Notes under the pieces: model-generated
The model's input: only the letters and a program-made list of their open reading frames with translations
What the model was told of the DNA's origin: nothing
Database searches by the model: none
Part shown: positions 54,479 to 58,057 of the stretch, piece after piece
Layout of the letters: every line of letters begins with the position of its first letter
Numbering within the stretch: the first letter of the stretch is position 1
Made by a program: the position numbers and the translations under genes
Assembly (NCBI RefSeq): GCF_003991155.1
Contig: NZ_CP031293.1
DNA length: 64,000 nucleotides
Strand: one strand, 5' to 3'
Source of the DNA: Escherichia coli
Lineage (GTDB): Bacteria; Pseudomonadota; Gammaproteobacteria; Enterobacterales; Enterobacteriaceae

Positions 54479-55018
54479 TCATATTGCCCCCAGCATGGTG
54501 GTGACCATCGCCATCAGTGGACCAGCCAGATCTGGGTCCACACGAAACATCGACACAATACCTTCACTAATTTCCTTCAGTTTCTGGTGGCGTGGTGCGT
54601 TGAGAATGACAGCCTGTTTTGCCTCACTGAGTTCCTTTTCCATTTCAGCCAACCTAGCCATAAAGCTATCCTGCTCAACCAGGTAACCGCGATATTCCAG
54701 CGGTAGTACCGCCAGAATTGCCGGGGTCAGTTCACGCACGTTATTTCGGTATTTTTCAGAATCGAATTTGTTATCGAGGAAGCGGAACAGCTTCTGGCGT
54801 GCACGGCTGACATCATCAGGGAAATCGATGGTGCCGCCGCCCAGCTCCCGATACTCATTCACAATGAGTGCGGCAACAACATCCTGATTATCTGCAGCCG
54901 ACCAGGCGCGAACGGCATCACGGATTTTTTCGTGGCCTGGCGCCTGTTTTGTTTGAGAACGATTTATCACCGCAGTCGGGGTAAATCCGCTAGTCTGTTG
55001 GTATGTAATTGGTTGCAT
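54479..55018 (-). CDS. YdaT-like protein in the cII position
   Basis: 179-aa ORF; EYRELGGGTIDFP and LTPAILAVLPLEYRGYL resemble Rac YdaT. Confidence 0.55.
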   Translation of the reverse strand: MQPITYQQTSGFTPTAVINRSQTKQAPGHEKIRDAVRAWSAADNQDVVAALIVNEYRELGGGTIDFPDDVSRARQKLFRFLDNKFDSEKYRNNVRELTPAILAVLPLEYRGYLVEQDSFMARLAEMEKELSEAKQAVILNAPRHQKLKEISEGIVSMFRVDPDLAGPLMAMVTTMLGAI

Positions 55019-55099
55019 AATTGATTCCTTTAGTTTGAATTGACTGTTAATCAGTCTGTTAAGTTGATTGCTTATTGTTAAAGAGCGTGAAATGGAAAT

Positions 55100-55330
55100 T
55101 TAAGCTGCGTTCTTTTCGGTGTGTGGAAACAACTTCGGAAGATCCGGGCGAATCTGGTATGCCTTCACAACTCCACCAGTAGCCGTAACAATGCTGCCGA
55201 CATGTTCAGGGGATACCTTTGCTTTGTTGTGAAGCCACTTATAGACGGCCTGCTGTGAAACTTCGCAGGCATCGCCCAGTTTCTTTTGTGAACCAACTAT
55301 ATTGATCGCTGTTTTGATTGCTGGGTTCAT
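55100..55330 (-). CDS. Cro-like HTH regulator (YdaS family)
   Basis: 76-aa ORF MNPAIKTAINIVGSQKKLGDACEVSQQAVYKWLHNK...; divergent from the repressor. Confidence 0.7.
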   Translation of the reverse strand: MNPAIKTAINIVGSQKKLGDACEVSQQAVYKWLHNKAKVSPEHVGSIVTATGGVVKAYQIRPDLPKLFPHTEKNAA

Positions 55331-55434
55331 AACAACCTCCGTGGTTAATCTGAACCAAGATTAAAACTATGGTTGTTTTTAGTCAACAACCATTTTCGTT
55401 TGATGGAATAAAACCTTGGTTGTACATTTGGTCT
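55331..55434. promoter_or_regulatory. OR-like operator/promoter region between cro and cI
   Basis: Inverted repeats TTAATCTGAACCAAGATTAA (55345-55364) and ATGGTTGTT-N7-AACAACCAT (55369-55393). Confidence 0.6.
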
Positions 55435-56124
55435 ATGAAAACAACACTCTCAGAAAGACTTAAAGAAGCCAGATCAGCGCGAGGCCTTACACAAAAGGCA
55501 CTTGGGGATTTGGTTGGGGTTAGCCAGGCTGCTATTCAGAAAATCGAAACAGGGAAAGCTAACCAAACAACTAAAATCGTGGAGATCGCGAACGCTTTGG
55601 GTGTGCGCGCAGAATGGTTATCTTCTGGCATTGGAAATATGTCAGACAGTACAGTGCAACCAATACAATCAACTCTCAGCCATTCCAAATACTTCAAGAT
55701 TGACGTTCTTGATATAGAAGTCAGTGCTGGGCCGGGAGTCATCAACCGTGAGTTTGTAGAAGTTCTACGCTCGGTTGAGTACTCGTTTGACGATGCTCGT
55801 CACATGTTCGATGGTAGGAAAGCGGAAAATATCCGCATCATTAACGTGCGTGGTGACAGCATGTCAGGAACGATCGAACCAGGTGATCTGCTGTTCGTTG
55901 ATATCACTGTTAAATCTTTCGACGGTGATGGTATCTATGCGTTTCTGTACGACGACACAGCCCATGTAAAGCGCCTGCAAATGATGAAGGATAAGCTGCT
56001 GGTCATCTCTGATAACAAAAGCTACTCACCGTGGGACCCGATCGAGAAAGACGAGATGAACCGGGTGTTCATCTTCGGTAAGGTTATTGGGAGCATGCCG
56101 CAGACGTACAGGAAACACGGATAA
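55435..56124 (+). CDS. cI: CI-like repressor with S24 LexA-type autopeptidase domain
   Basis: Start MKTTLSERLKEARSARGLTQKALGDLVGVSQAAIQKIE (HTH); C-terminal GDSM and KRL catalytic motifs. Confidence 0.85.
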   Translation: MKTTLSERLKEARSARGLTQKALGDLVGVSQAAIQKIETGKANQTTKIVEIANALGVRAEWLSSGIGNMSDSTVQPIQSTLSHSKYFKIDVLDIEVSAGPGVINREFVEVLRSVEYSFDDARHMFDGRKAENIRIINVRGDSMSGTIEPGDLLFVDITVKSFDGDGIYAFLYDDTAHVKRLQMMKDKLLVISDNKSYSPWDPIEKDEMNRVFIFGKVIGSMPQTYRKHG

Positions 56125-56204
56125 TCAGCTGCGTGCTGATGAGGCTTTAGGGTAATGCGCTGAAAGAATTCTTTATAAAAATAACATTACGGGAAAGGCA
56201 AAAA

Positions 56205-56474
56205 ATGAGTGATAAAAAACTTATTAAAAAATCAAATAACTGTGTAGATGCATATGCTGATGCATTTGGATATTCATCTTTTGGGGAAGATGACGATCGC
56301 TTAGGCTCCATATCTTTCTTTCAGCATGTTACAGAATGGGACGCTGATGGTAGTAATGACACTGAAAGCGTAAAGTACAACATTGCAACAATTCGCATGA
56401 CGGAAGATTTAATGCTTAAACTCGCTGACTTTATTCGCGATCAGCATGATAGAGCTAAAACCAATAAGTCATAA
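56205..56474 (+). CDS. Hypothetical acidic protein, first gene in the rexAB position
   Basis: 89-aa AT-rich ORF MSDKKLIKKSNNCVDAYADAFGYSSFGEDDD... Confidence 0.5.
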   Translation: MSDKKLIKKSNNCVDAYADAFGYSSFGEDDDRLGSISFFQHVTEWDADGSNDTESVKYNIATIRMTEDLMLKLADFIRDQHDRAKTNKS

Positions 56475-56482
56475 TATTAACA

Positions 56483-56923
56483 ATGAAATACGGTTATTAC
56501 GAAGCTCCAAACCTAACTGAAAAGCTTGAACAAGCGGCAAGATCATCATCTTTGCACACCGCAGCATTTTCTCAATCAGCTGGTATGTCTGGCGATAATG
56601 TACCTATGCTACAATCAAGTGGTAGCGGTGGCTCTGGGAGTAATAATGTGCTTGAATCAAAAGTTGCAAAGCTTGAGTCTGATGTGTCCTACATCCGACG
56701 TGACGTTGATGAGCTTAAGACAGATGTCAAATCTATCGACAGAAACATGATCGCTGTTCTGGAGCGACTCGATTCAATAAAAGAGTCACTAGCCAAAAAA
56801 CCATCCATCGATGCTATCGATAAAAAGATTTCAGACGCAAAGCTTGCGGTATTGCTTGGTGTTCCAGCAATCATCGCTGCAGGAACAGGGCTTTATAAGC
56901 TATCAATGTACTTTTTTCTTTAG
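56483..56923 (+). CDS. Hypothetical coiled-coil protein with C-terminal TM anchor, second gene in the rexAB position
   Basis: 146 aa; heptad-like VLESKVAKLESDVSYIRRDVDELKTDVKSIDRNM; hydrophobic tail LAVLLGVPAIIAAGTGLYKLSMYFFL. Confidence 0.55.
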   Translation: MKYGYYEAPNLTEKLEQAARSSSLHTAAFSQSAGMSGDNVPMLQSSGSGGSGSNNVLESKVAKLESDVSYIRRDVDELKTDVKSIDRNMIAVLERLDSIKESLAKKPSIDAIDKKISDAKLAVLLGVPAIIAAGTGLYKLSMYFFL

Positions 56924-57002
56924 TGCTTAAGAAACTGCTCGCCACCTCGCATTAGGCAAAGCGATTTTTCATTCCCTATTACCCTTTCTTAACCAATCAT
57001 CT

Positions 57003-57031
57003 AAACCCGGCCCCGTGCCGGGTTTTCTTTT
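57003..57031 (+). terminator. Rho-independent terminator ending the cI operon
   Basis: AAACCCGGC-CCCGT-GCCGGGTTT hairpin followed by TTCTTTTG. Confidence 0.75.
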
Positions 57032-57158
57032 GCCCTCCCCTCATCACACACACCGTTAAAAAAACCACCATAACCTCGCTTCAGTTATCGCTATGCGATT
57101 CAAGTCACAAAATAAATCCATCCTAAATACAACCAGTTATATCTAAAACAACCAATAA

Positions 57159-57202
57159 AACAACTTTTGTTGTTGACGATAAAACAACTATAGTTTTAAA
57201 TA
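57159..57202 (+). promoter_or_regulatory. Candidate OL/pL: operator palindrome plus promoter elements
   Basis: AACAAC-TTTT-GTTGTT palindrome overlapping a TTGACG -35; TAAATA 18 bp downstream; half-sites shared with OR. Confidence 0.4.
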
Positions 57203-57274
57203 AGTTCATCGCAACAACACAACGATACGGCAACCACCTGATTCACCGTTGCGATGACCGCTTAGATCCGCAGC

Positions 57275-57685
57275 TTGAATTTCAGCAGGCTCCGGGGAGT
57301 GCGAGGGGTGAAGCGGACGCGTGAACGTCGGTGTGACCAGCTGAAATCAACTCAACACTTCATACCTCAGTCGCTTCAACGAGGCGGCTTAGTTATGACA
57401 ACCGGCGGCCATCCACCGCCTGAATACGCGCAGAAGTCTCTATATGTTCAGCAGCCCAGCTTACGGGCAGGAGTTTTTATGGTTCATCAACATTACGGTA
57501 CGCAGACCGTTAATCGCGGTGCGGTCATGCCAGGAATGCTGGTCAAACACAAAGATGGTACCTGGACTGCATCGGCTAATTTACGCGGACGGCTTTATCT
57601 GCATCGCGGCGTCGAGCGCACTTATACCCGTGACTTGCTCGTGGAAATTTTTCTCGACGGACGCGGCAACGGCCTGAATCACTAA
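57275..57685 (+). CDS. Hypothetical early-left protein with Arg-rich motif, possible N-like antiterminator
   Basis: ORF with non-ATG start; N-terminal [12 protein letters not shown] resembles the lambda N Arg-rich motif; rest of protein unlike N. Confidence 0.35.
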
Positions 57686-57760
57686 TCCCCTTTCCTGTTT
57701 TCCTAATCAGCCTGGCATTTCGCGGGCGATATTTTCACAGCCATTTTCAGGAGTTCAGCC

Positions 57761-58057
57761 ATGAACGCTTATTACATTCAGGATCGTCTTGAGGCTCAGA
57801 GCTGGGCACGTCACTACCAGCAGATCGCCCGTGAAGAGAAAGAGGCAGAACTGGCAGACGACATGGAAAAAGGCCTGCCCCAGCACCTGTTTGAATCGCT
57901 ATGCATCGATCATTTGCAACGCCACGGGGCCAGCAAAAAAGCCATTACCCGTGCGTTTGATGACGATGTTGAGTTTCAGGAGCGCATGGCAGAACACATC
58001 CGGTACATGGTTGAAACCATTGCTCACCACCAGGTTGATATTGATTCAGAGGTATAA
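57761..58057 (+). CDS. gam: Gam, host RecBCD inhibitor (short form)
   Basis: 98-aa [41 protein letters not shown]... Confidence 0.9.

What the first reader, a model, noticed from the sequence alone, without database searches (positions are those of the whole stretch)
56205..56923. Two small genes in the rexAB position, co-oriented with cI and closed by a strong terminator
In lambda the repressor is co-transcribed with the rexA-rexB exclusion system; other phages place sieB, BstA or other defence genes here. This prophage has an 89-aa acidic protein and a 146-aa protein with a heptad-like coiled coil and a single C-terminal TM anchor. Neither resembles RexA/RexB. They are AT-rich, tightly spaced (9 nt) and followed by the hairpin terminator at 57003-57031. 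Expression in the lysogen together with the repressor is what a superinfection-exclusion or abortive-infection module needs.
Basis: partly seen in the sequence, partly recalled or inferred. Interest (0 to 1): 0.7.

Follow-up and report, generated by a model that had tools for sequence, protein, structure and literature searches.

The report
Repressor-linked two-gene membrane moron cassette
Two small, real but uncharacterised prophage genes sit in the same operon as the repressor; relatives of this pair occupy the classic phage-exclusion slots of many enterobacterial prophages, which makes it a good untested candidate anti-phage system.

Summary
ORFs 56205-56474 (89 aa, pI 4.8) and 56483-56923 (146 aa) are real genes under purifying selection (dN/dS 0.06-0.12 and 0.19-0.40). 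The 146-aa protein has a disordered N-terminus, a G/S linker, about 7 heptads and a C-terminal TM. Both follow the cI-like repressor and end at hairpin 57003-57025.

The window is an E. coli lambdoid prophage at the DLP12/argU site. The interval from the cI stop to the terminator is a polymorphic cargo slot: empty, this pair in two alleles, or two other genes that others have flagged computationally as defence candidates.

The 146-aa family (B) is almost always preceded by a tightly coupled partner from one of three unrelated families. In 80 viral contigs the pair lies directly after a CI-type repressor in 52 and after Mnt in P22-like immI in 11. The Mnt site is exactly where P22 carries sieA, and start and stop codons overlap there. 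It lies in tail-gene moron sites in 6. It was never seen in a lysis cassette.

There is no homology to RexAB or SieA, no match to any PADLOC model, and no significant family-specific Pfam domain. Function is inferred only. My best reading is a lysogen-expressed exclusion or abortive-infection module with a cytoplasmic partner and a tail-anchored membrane effector.

The parts
55100..55330 (-). cro-position gene (YdaS-type HTH), divergent from the repressor
   Evidence: ORF. Annotated 'transcriptional regulator'. PF15943 YdaS_toxin in homologous loci.
55369..56124 (+). cI-like repressor (HTH + S24 peptidase). The likely true start is 55435 (229 aa). 55369-55393 is a palindrome, probably an operator.
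   Evidence: phrog_4 transcriptional repressor 4e-73. S24 family peptidase in RefSeq. Palindrome found.
56125..57002 (+). Variable cargo slot between the cI stop codon and the shared operon terminator. It holds the A-B pair here; in other E. coli with the same cI it is empty (119 bp) or holds different genes.
   Evidence: Homology to the empty or other-cargo alleles L108-L110 stops at 56123-56152 and resumes at 57003-57006. Slot GC is 39.7%.
56205..56474 (+). Gene A (89 aa, acidic, cytoplasmic), family phrog_4231. Predicted three-stranded beta-sheet plus C-terminal helix.
   Evidence: 26 invariant columns across genera; dN/dS 0.06-0.12; pLDDT 77.
56483..56923 (+). Gene B (146 aa), family phrog_3556. 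It has a variable N-terminal segment and G/S linker (aa 1-55, 56483-56647), a heptad coiled coil (aa 56-105, 56648-56797) and a C-terminal TM anchor (aa 119-146, 56837-56920).
   Evidence: (secondary structure).
57003..57035 (+). Intrinsic terminator of the repressor operon (9-bp stem, loop 5, U-tract). It is part of the conserved backbone.
57140..57230 (+). pL-like promoter/operator region: TTGACG-17 nt-TTAAAT with repeated ACAAC/GTTGT half-sites like those between cro and cI. Inferred only.
   Evidence: Read directly from the sequence. The promoter scan did not call it. It is followed by kilR-, gam-, bet- and exo-like genes.

Best explanation
A and B form a mobile two-gene 'moron' cassette. 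In the lysogen it is transcribed together with the prophage maintenance repressor. Here that means from the cI promoter, ending at the shared operon terminator.

A is a small acidic cytoplasmic protein. B is a tail-anchored inner-membrane protein. Its disordered N-terminus, G/S linker and ~50-residue coiled coil face the cytoplasm, and a single C-terminal helix sits in the membrane.

I propose that the two act as one complex at the cytoplasmic face of the membrane to exclude superinfecting phages, using Rex-like logic. A, or one of its interchangeable counterparts A2 and A3, would be the specificity or sensor subunit and would hold or engage the N-terminal part of B. On infection, B would oligomerise through its coiled coil and perturb the membrane, by depolarisation or premature lysis, and abort the infection.

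Shown: the genes are real and constrained, the domain architecture, the operon-like coupling, the cassette behaviour, and the preference for repressor-linked and moron slots.

Inferred: expression in the lysogen, the A-B interaction, any anti-phage activity, and the membrane-effector step.
For: (1) Operon structure. There is no terminator between cI and A, and one strong terminator after B that is shared by all slot alleles. In P22-like phages, mnt, A and B have overlapping stop and start codons (ATGA or 8-nt overlaps). In Salmonella the repressor stop and the partner start are 1 nt apart.

(2) Context. 52 of 80 loci are after a CI-type repressor, 11 of 80 after Mnt and 6 of 80 at tail-gene moron sites. 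The pair was never in a lysis cassette. The same pattern appears in genomes of Klebsiella, Salmonella, Enterobacter, Serratia and Leclercia.

(3) The slots are those of proven exclusion genes: rexAB, sieA (PMC10883804) and the HK97 gp15 moron. bstA also sits downstream of cI, and cI-N is a known mosaic hotspot with high lysogenic transcription (PMC8585504).

(4) Presence/absence polymorphism behind the same cI. The two alternative occupants are PADLOC candidate PDC-S42 (3e-86) and a DUF7946/7947 protein. Both are 'predicted novel defense gene' in the DefensePredictor tables.

(5) Modularity typical of conflict systems. A conserved B core is combined with three unrelated partner families (phrog_4231, 5893, 4293), and B's N-terminal and C-terminal halves are shuffled.

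(6) Allelic divergence is confined to 56140-56836, inside flanks that are 94-100% identical. dS is 0.6-1.5 for the pair against 0.10 for cI.

(7) B has the XhlA-like layout of coiled coil plus C-terminal TM, with weak hits to 'hemolysin' PHROGs and to Pfam XhlA in relatives.
Against: No experiment, and no homology to any validated defence protein. PADLOC v2 gives nothing for A, and nothing beyond coiled-coil noise for B or for any partner or variant. NCBIfam and Pfam are also empty.

The A-B interaction is not demonstrated. The fused A-linker-B AlphaFold model was uninformative (pLDDT 47). The co-variation of A1 with the YYExPxL N-terminus of B could simply reflect physical adjacency, and it breaks down in Serratia and Raoultella.

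Many prophages with the same repressor carry an empty slot, so the pair is dispensable. Guilt by position cannot separate defence from other lysogenic-conversion functions.

I could not read Brenes & Laub 2025, so prior experimental description is not excluded.
Confidence: 0.4

Rival explanations
1. Superinfection exclusion by blocking genome entry (SieA / HK97 gp15 type). The membrane-anchored A-B complex would sit at the cytoplasmic face of the inner membrane. There it would interfere with the ejection-protein or tape-measure conduit of incoming phages, so their DNA never enters. The host is not killed.
For: Two of the three classical slots the pair occupies hold entry blockers. One is sieA, between mnt and gene 16 (mechanism in PMC10883804). 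The other is the HK97 gp15 moron next to the tape-measure gene (gp15 function from my own knowledge of Cumby et al. 2012). B is membrane-anchored. Interchangeable partner families could set specificity for different injection machineries.
Against: Known entry blockers are polytopic or expose a periplasmic domain. B has no signal sequence and only a C-terminal anchor, so nearly all of A and B is cytoplasmic. There is no sequence similarity to SieA. The tight small-acidic-protein plus membrane-protein coupling looks more like a restrained effector.
Confidence: 0.22
2. A lysogenic-conversion or prophage-housekeeping function unrelated to defence. Examples are modulation of host envelope or membrane physiology, control of the prophage's own induction or lysis timing, or inhibition of cell division.
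For: Morons in these same slots also encode non-defence traits; lom and bor in lambda are examples (established knowledge). The XhlA-like layout of B recalls a lysis accessory protein. The neighbouring gene is a KilR-type division inhibitor. Function is completely untested.
Against: The pair was never found in a lysis cassette in 80 loci. It is linked to three unrelated repressor families and also found away from repressors, so it is not a cofactor of one regulator. The shuffling of partners and of B halves, and the high allelic divergence, are typical of conflict genes rather than physiology genes.
Confidence: 0.2
3. A toxin-antitoxin-like addiction cassette. B would be a small membrane toxin and A its cognate antitoxin. 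The pair would stabilise the prophage or simply propagate selfishly, with any phage effect being secondary.
For: The upstream gene is small and acidic, the downstream gene encodes a membrane protein, and the start and stop codons overlap or lie 1-12 nt apart. The cassette moves between unrelated elements.
Against: No match to any TA family in NCBIfam or Pfam. A is more conserved than B, the opposite of many TA pairs. Variants exist in which B follows cI with no separate partner gene (L093), which would be lethal for a simple TA unless the partner is fused. Empty-slot alleles are common.
Confidence: 0.1

Closest known systems
Lambda RexA/RexB (abortive infection, cI operon)
   Same: Same genomic position and orientation: two genes between cI and the operon terminator, just before OL/pL. 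Both are two-component, one soluble protein plus one membrane protein, and both are dispensable for the phage.
   Different: No sequence similarity. RexA is 279 aa against 89 aa for A. RexB is a polytopic membrane protein, whereas B has a cytoplasmic coiled coil and a single C-terminal anchor. A phenotype for A-B is unknown.
P22 SieA (inner-membrane superinfection exclusion protein)
   Same: In P22-like phages (UPF_BP1 and 11 IMG/VR loci) the A-B pair lies exactly where P22 has orf59a+sieA. That is downstream of and co-oriented with mnt, abutting ejection gene 16. Only 22 of 66 P22-like phages have sieA (PMC10883804), so the locus is a variable exclusion slot.
   Different: No similarity to SieA or Orf59a. 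SieA is one polytopic protein with its own promoter. A-B is two genes translationally coupled to mnt.
HK97 gp15 moron (tail-region superinfection exclusion)
   Same: Some A-B cassettes sit among tail genes next to chaperone and tape-measure genes or between K and I, often on the opposite strand. This is the behaviour of a moron.
   Different: gp15 is a single 62-aa protein. It is unrelated in sequence and architecture.
XhlA of Bacillus prophage PBSX (Pfam PF10779)
   Same: Small protein with a coiled coil followed by a C-terminal hydrophobic anchor. There are weak hits of B and its relatives to 'hemolysin' PHROGs and to PF10779. Some relatives are named 'hemolysin XhlA' by NCBI and UniRef.
   Different: The window's B scores E = 0.26 against PF10779, and only 1 of 22 relatives reaches 1e-3. 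XhlA lies in a lysis cassette with holin and amidase (my knowledge), whereas A-B never does.
BstA (BTP1) and other single-gene Abi proteins downstream of cI
   Same: Located downstream of the prophage repressor and presumed to share its promoter. Widespread in enterobacterial prophages (PMC8585504).
   Different: BstA is a large single DNA-binding protein with a cis-acting aba element. There is no similarity to A or B (PADLOC).

Membership tests
RexAB | Two genes downstream of cI in the same transcription unit, before the immunity terminator | tested here: met
   (position and shared terminator). Co-transcription itself is inferred.
RexAB | Sequence homology to RexA and RexB | tested here: not met
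   BLASTP shows no significant alignment. A has no PADLOC hit at E<=1, and B has only weak coiled-coil matches (GajA, LmuB, PbeC, JetC; E 0.006-0.04), none to a Rex model.
RexAB | Polytopic (multi-TM) RexB-type channel protein | tested here: not met
   B has one hydrophobic segment, at residues 119-146. The predicted secondary structure agrees.
RexAB | Exclusion of T4 rII and other phages with loss of membrane potential | not testable with these tools
   Needs plating and membrane-potential assays.
SieA | Located between mnt and ejection gene 16 of P22-like phages, co-oriented with mnt | tested here: met
   Met for homologs of the pair, not for the window copy: UPF_BP1 compared with P22, 11 IMG/VR loci, and Serratia and Leclercia.
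SieA | Sequence homology to SieA types A-C, including the FxRYPxEAxxFNK motif | tested here: not met
   BLASTP E = 1.6 over 18 residues. The motif (PMC10883804) is absent from B.
XhlA (PF10779) | Significant match to the Pfam model | tested here: not met
   Window B has i-Evalue 0.26. Of 22 relatives, 1 reaches <=1e-3 and 5 reach <=0.1.
XhlA (PF10779) | Coiled coil followed by a C-terminal membrane anchor | tested here: met
XhlA (PF10779) | Encoded in a lysis cassette beside holin and endolysin | tested here: not met
   0 of 80 loci. The window context is immunity genes.
Moron (Hendrix/Juhala sense) | Present or absent between otherwise near-identical phage genomes | tested here: met
   An empty-slot allele and other-cargo alleles exist with flanks 96-98% identical.
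Moron (Hendrix/Juhala sense) | Base composition distinct from neighbours | tested here: met
   39.6% GC against 50-52%.
Moron (Hendrix/Juhala sense) | Own promoter and terminator; expressed from the repressed prophage | tested here: inconclusive
   The terminator is present but shared with the backbone. No sigma-70 match lies upstream of A. The pair probably uses the repressor promoter. Expression was not testable.
Type II toxin-antitoxin | Homology to a known toxin or antitoxin family | tested here: not met
   NCBIfam and Pfam give nothing for A, and only weak coiled-coil hits for B that fall below cutoff or are non-specific (best: Pfam FlaC_arch, i-Evalue 5.7e-4). None is a toxin or antitoxin family.
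Type II toxin-antitoxin | Toxicity of one partner, neutralised by the other | not testable with these tools
   Needs expression experiments.
Any catalogued defence system (PADLOC-DB v2.0.0) | Match to a model of a known or candidate system | tested here: not met
   covering A, B, the A2/A3 partners and the B variants.

The most novel reading that the evidence does not exclude
A-B founds a modular family of prophage anti-phage systems. In this family one conserved tail-anchored coiled-coil membrane effector (B core: G-rich linker, MLEARVAKLESDVSYIRRDV coiled coil, C-terminal TM) is combined with at least three unrelated, interchangeable cytoplasmic sensor proteins. These are phrog_4231, the beta-rich phrog_5893 and the zinc-ribbon phrog_4293. 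The cassette has colonised every classical exclusion slot of enterobacterial temperate phages: the rexAB site after cI, the sieA site after mnt, and tail-gene moron sites.
Probability: 0.35. Interest if true: 0.7.

Novelty: new variant of a known kind. Interest (0 to 1): 0.55.

Why it matters
If the pair is an exclusion system, it would add a compact defence module of about 720 bp that the catalogues I could search (PADLOC v2, NCBIfam, Pfam, PHROG annotations) do not hold.

Its membrane effector type, tail-anchored with a single TM and a coiled coil, differs from RexB, SieA and other known prophage membrane defences.

Its plug-and-play partner proteins would give a natural experiment in how sensing specificity is exchanged.

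It would also reinforce a practical rule for discovery: genes lodged between a lysogeny repressor and its operon terminator are enriched for defence. In this one E. coli prophage family that slot alone holds at least four alternative states.

The pair is in about 4-5% of complete E. coli genomes (197-295 of 5426), and relatives occur in Salmonella, Klebsiella, Enterobacter, Citrobacter, Serratia, Pantoea and Erwinia. It could therefore affect phage-therapy host range.

Tried and rejected
(1) Near-identical phage genomes: megablast against 50,697 phage records found only a 37-nt terminator match. The informative hit came from tblastn.

(2) Pfam, NCBIfam and PADLOC for both proteins gave only coiled-coil noise.

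(3) Sequence search of PDB chains gave only trimeric coiled-coil noise for B (Lpp, P22 gp26, RSV F) and nothing for A.

(5) AlphaFold of an artificial A-(GGGGS)5-B fusion with a paired 8-row alignment, meant to test A-B docking, gave pLDDT 47 and pTM 0.28. It was uninformative apart from B's secondary structure.

(6) An exhaustive HMMER search of 1.84 billion representatives with A found only 8 related clusters and no distant annotated relatives.

(7) My automatic clustering of B N-termini to quantify co-variation with partner type failed, because the G-rich linker made everything cluster. I use only the qualitative observation.

(8) Rfam scan of 54800-57800 found no RNA family.

(9) Literature: there were no hits for any accession, PHROG id or PDC-S42. 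Brenes & Laub 2025 is not held. The DefensePredictor supplementary tables, which were truncated in storage, do not list A or B accessions but do list both alternative slot occupants.

(10) The svsR sRNA of prophage NC-SV lies inside cI's 3' end and is unrelated to this pair.

(11) The distant B-like hit in Salmonella phage 29485 (31% identity over the coiled coil, E = 5e-4, in the tail cluster) may be only coiled-coil similarity. I give it no weight.

Full report
**1. What is in the sequence**

- A is 56205-56474 (+), 89 aa.
- B is 56483-56923 (+), 146 aa.
- They are separated by 8 nt, not 9.
- Upstream on the same strand is an HTH+S24 cI-like repressor (longest ORF 55369-56124; phrog_4, 4e-73).
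- A YdaS-type cro-position gene (55100-55330) diverges from the repressor. A YdaT gene and O- and P-like replication genes follow on the minus strand.
- Downstream of B is a clean intrinsic terminator: a 9-bp G+C stem at 57003-57025 plus a U-tract, -14.8 kcal/mol, z = -3.7.
- After that come an operator-rich pL-like region and kilR-, gam-, bet- and exo-like genes.

Identical DNA occurs in E. coli chromosomes, in a lambdoid prophage at the DLP12/argU site. The layout mirrors lambda cI-rexA-rexB-OL/pL.

**2. Are the genes real?**

Yes.

- Against diverged alleles, dN/dS is 0.06-0.12 for A and 0.19-0.40 for B.
- Each belongs to a PHROG of unknown function: phrog_4231 (1.7e-48) and phrog_3556 (7.8e-53).
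- A is very conserved across genera, with 26 invariant columns in 17 sequences.
- A belongs to a tiny family: 8 clusters among 1.84 billion representatives.
- The pair is AT-rich, 39.6% GC against 50-52% in neighbouring genes.

**3. The proteins**

B has four parts:

- a short N-terminal helix and a disordered, Ser/Gly-rich stretch (residues 1-55);
- about seven heptads (56-105, with L/I/V/M at 14 of 19 a/d positions);
- a short basic stretch;
- a single hydrophobic helix at the very C-terminus (119-146).

B has no signal sequence, and lysines precede the anchor. It should therefore be tail-anchored, with almost all of its mass in the cytoplasm. This topology is an inference.

Pfam, NCBIfam, PADLOC and PDB sequence searches give only coiled-coil noise.

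The layout resembles XhlA. Some relatives carry that name in databases. However, the window protein scores only E = 0.26 against PF10779, and just 1 of 22 relatives reaches 1e-3.

**4. The family is modular**

B relatives occur in Escherichia, Salmonella, Klebsiella, Citrobacter, Enterobacter, Pantoea, Erwinia, Serratia and Dickeya. They share a core: G-rich linker, MLEARVAKLESDVSYIRRDV coiled coil and C-terminal TM. Their N-terminal ~30-55 residues differ, and they have at least two C-terminal types. The halves are recombined in different combinations.

B is almost always preceded by a co-oriented gene that overlaps it or sits 1-12 nt upstream. That partner comes from one of three unrelated families:

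- A1 = phrog_4231, the type in the window;
- A2 = phrog_5893, about 135-160 aa and beta-rich;
- A3 = phrog_4293, about 112-132 aa with CxxC...CxxC.

Conversely, every A1 homolog I located is followed by a protein with the same architecture as B. This holds even where the sequence has drifted into other PHROGs, as in Serratia and Raoultella.

Within Escherichia, Salmonella and Leclercia, A1 always travels with the YYExPxL-type N-terminus of B, even when B's C-terminal half is swapped. This fits an A-B(N-terminus) contact. It could equally reflect simple adjacency.

**5. Where the cassette sits**

I called ORFs and clustered neighbours in 80 IMG/VR loci that encode B relatives.

| Position of the pair | Loci (of 80) |
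|---|---|
| Directly after a CI-type repressor (44 S24 type, 8 non-S24), opposite a cro/YdaS gene | 52 |
| Directly after an Mnt/Arc-type repressor in the immI region of P22-like phages, between ant and ejection gene 16 | 11 |
| Tail-gene cluster | 6 |
| Other or unresolved places | 9 |
| Not evaluable | 2 |

Counting distinct B sequences, 32 of 45 follow a repressor. Independent look-ups in bacterial assemblies agree. The pair was never in a lysis cassette.

In Salmonella phage UPF_BP1 the pair (75% and 45% identical to the window proteins) replaces P22's orf59a+sieA. In these phages, mnt, A and B have overlapping stop and start codons. This argues strongly for one transcript with a repressor that is made in the lysogen.

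Only 22 of 66 P22-like phages carry sieA (PMC10883804), so that locus is a variable exclusion slot.

The tail-cluster sites are often on the opposite strand. They resemble the position of the HK97 gp15 moron.

**6. The slot in this prophage**

Of 2210 E. coli genomes that match the 1.9-kb cI-to-pL query, 197 hold the whole region. Many others have the same cI (about 98% identical) and the same downstream flank but lack the pair.

Homology to those alleles stops at the cI stop codon (56123-56152) and resumes inside the terminator hairpin (57003-57006). Three conclusions follow:

- The slot is exactly cI-stop to terminator.
- The terminator belongs to the backbone.
- All cargo is inserted upstream of it, inside the repressor operon.

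The alternative states of the slot are:

- empty, 119 bp (L108);
- a 287-aa DUF7946+DUF7947 protein (L109);
- a 313-aa protein that matches PADLOC candidate PDC-S42 at 3e-86 (L110).

Both alternative proteins are listed as 'predicted novel defense gene' in the DefensePredictor tables (PMC13092281). These are computational flags, not validations.

Two A-B alleles exist in E. coli. Between them the divergent block is 56140-56836 (66-82% identity), inside flanks that are 94-100% identical. Its right edge coincides with the first codon of B's TM segment. dS is 0.6-1.5 in the pair against 0.10 in cI.

**7. Interpretation**

The evidence shows a mobile, constrained, two-gene moron. It preferentially lodges in operons of lysogeny repressors and in other moron sites. 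These are the same sites that hold rexAB, sieA, bstA and gp15.

The most economical reading is a lysogen-expressed phage-exclusion module. I commit to a Rex-like abortive-infection mechanism at confidence 0.40:

- a cytoplasmic partner, interchangeable between families, that senses infection;
- a tail-anchored coiled-coil protein that oligomerises and perturbs the membrane.

The rivals are:

- an entry block of the SieA/gp15 kind (0.22);
- a non-defence conversion or prophage-regulatory function (0.20);
- a TA-like addiction cassette (0.10).

Nothing here demonstrates expression, interaction or any phenotype.

**8. Comparison with known systems**

The pair is not a member of RexAB, SieA, XhlA, any PADLOC system or any known TA family. 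Homology was tested and not found. It shares position and two-component soluble-plus-membrane logic with RexAB, and position with SieA and gp15.

No paper in the searchable library mentions these proteins. I could not read Brenes & Laub 2025, which screened E. coli prophages for defence systems, so prior description cannot be excluded.

**9. Verdict**

- Observation: confirmed, with small corrections.
- Interpretation: well supported for context, untested for function.
- Classification: a new variant of a known kind (repressor-linked prophage exclusion morons), built from uncharacterised protein families.
- Interest: moderate (0.55). It is a well-defined and cheap experimental target with an unusual modular architecture, but it is one more candidate in a crowded field.

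Noticed in passing
window 55330-55440 and 57140-57230: The longest cI ORF starts at 55369. However, 55369-55393 is a perfect palindrome (ATGGTTGTT...AACAACCAT), and GGTTGT/ACAACC half-sites recur between cro and cI and again in the pL-like region. These are probably the OR and OL operators. The repressor more likely starts at 55435 (229 aa), as RefSeq annotates in sibling prophages.
   Followed up: partly
window 57479-57685 (+): A 68-aa KilR-type cell-division inhibitor gene is the first gene after the pL-like region. No N-antiterminator homolog is evident between the promoter and kilR, leaving a leader of about 280 nt.
   Followed up: no
L109:2323-3186 and L110:2330-3271 (E. coli genomes, same slot as window 56125-57002): Alternative cargo sits behind the same cI. 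One is a 287-aa DUF7946+DUF7947 protein (WP_000340376.1). The other is a 313-aa protein (WP_000338655.1) that matches PADLOC candidate PDC-S42 (3e-86) and NCBIfam 'LAPAL motif-containing putative phage structural protein'. Both are listed as predicted novel defence genes by DefensePredictor. The NCBIfam 'structural protein' name looks doubtful given this location.
   Followed up: partly
L108:2256-2374: An empty-slot allele has only 119 bp of unrelated sequence between the cI stop and the shared terminator. About a third of evenly sampled E. coli hits (13 of 40 rows) look like this.
   Followed up: partly
L093 (IMG/VR) and protein P0101: A 173-aa B variant (phrog_12602 plus phrog_3556 core) follows cI directly, with no separate partner gene. 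Its longer N-terminal domain may be a fused partner, which would be Rosetta-stone evidence. I did not analyse it further.
   Followed up: no
L041:1022-1755: Two B-like coiled-coil/TM genes (99 aa and 136 aa) lie in tandem instead of a partner plus B.
   Followed up: no
L074:2886-3284: An extra 132-aa protein with an N-terminal TM helix is inserted between cI and an A2-B pair.
   Followed up: no
L008-L011, L037-L040 (Pantoea and related): A2-B pairs lie at the edge of an element next to the chromosomal ivy gene and a DUF6246 gene. In one case the element carries a P4-like primase (Zn-ribbon/Toprim/DUF927), so the cassette may also ride on satellites.
   Followed up: no
L113:3037-3854 (Citrobacter): An A2-B pair with the XhlA-labelled C-terminal type lies on the opposite strand between lambda-like tail genes K and I. 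This is the same interval where HK97 has a putative terminator and moron space.
   Followed up: partly
L112 (E. coli E203449): The same A-B allele (92.5% identical) sits behind a repressor whose N-terminal DNA-binding half and cro partner differ. The cassette is therefore shared between immunity types within E. coli.
   Followed up: partly
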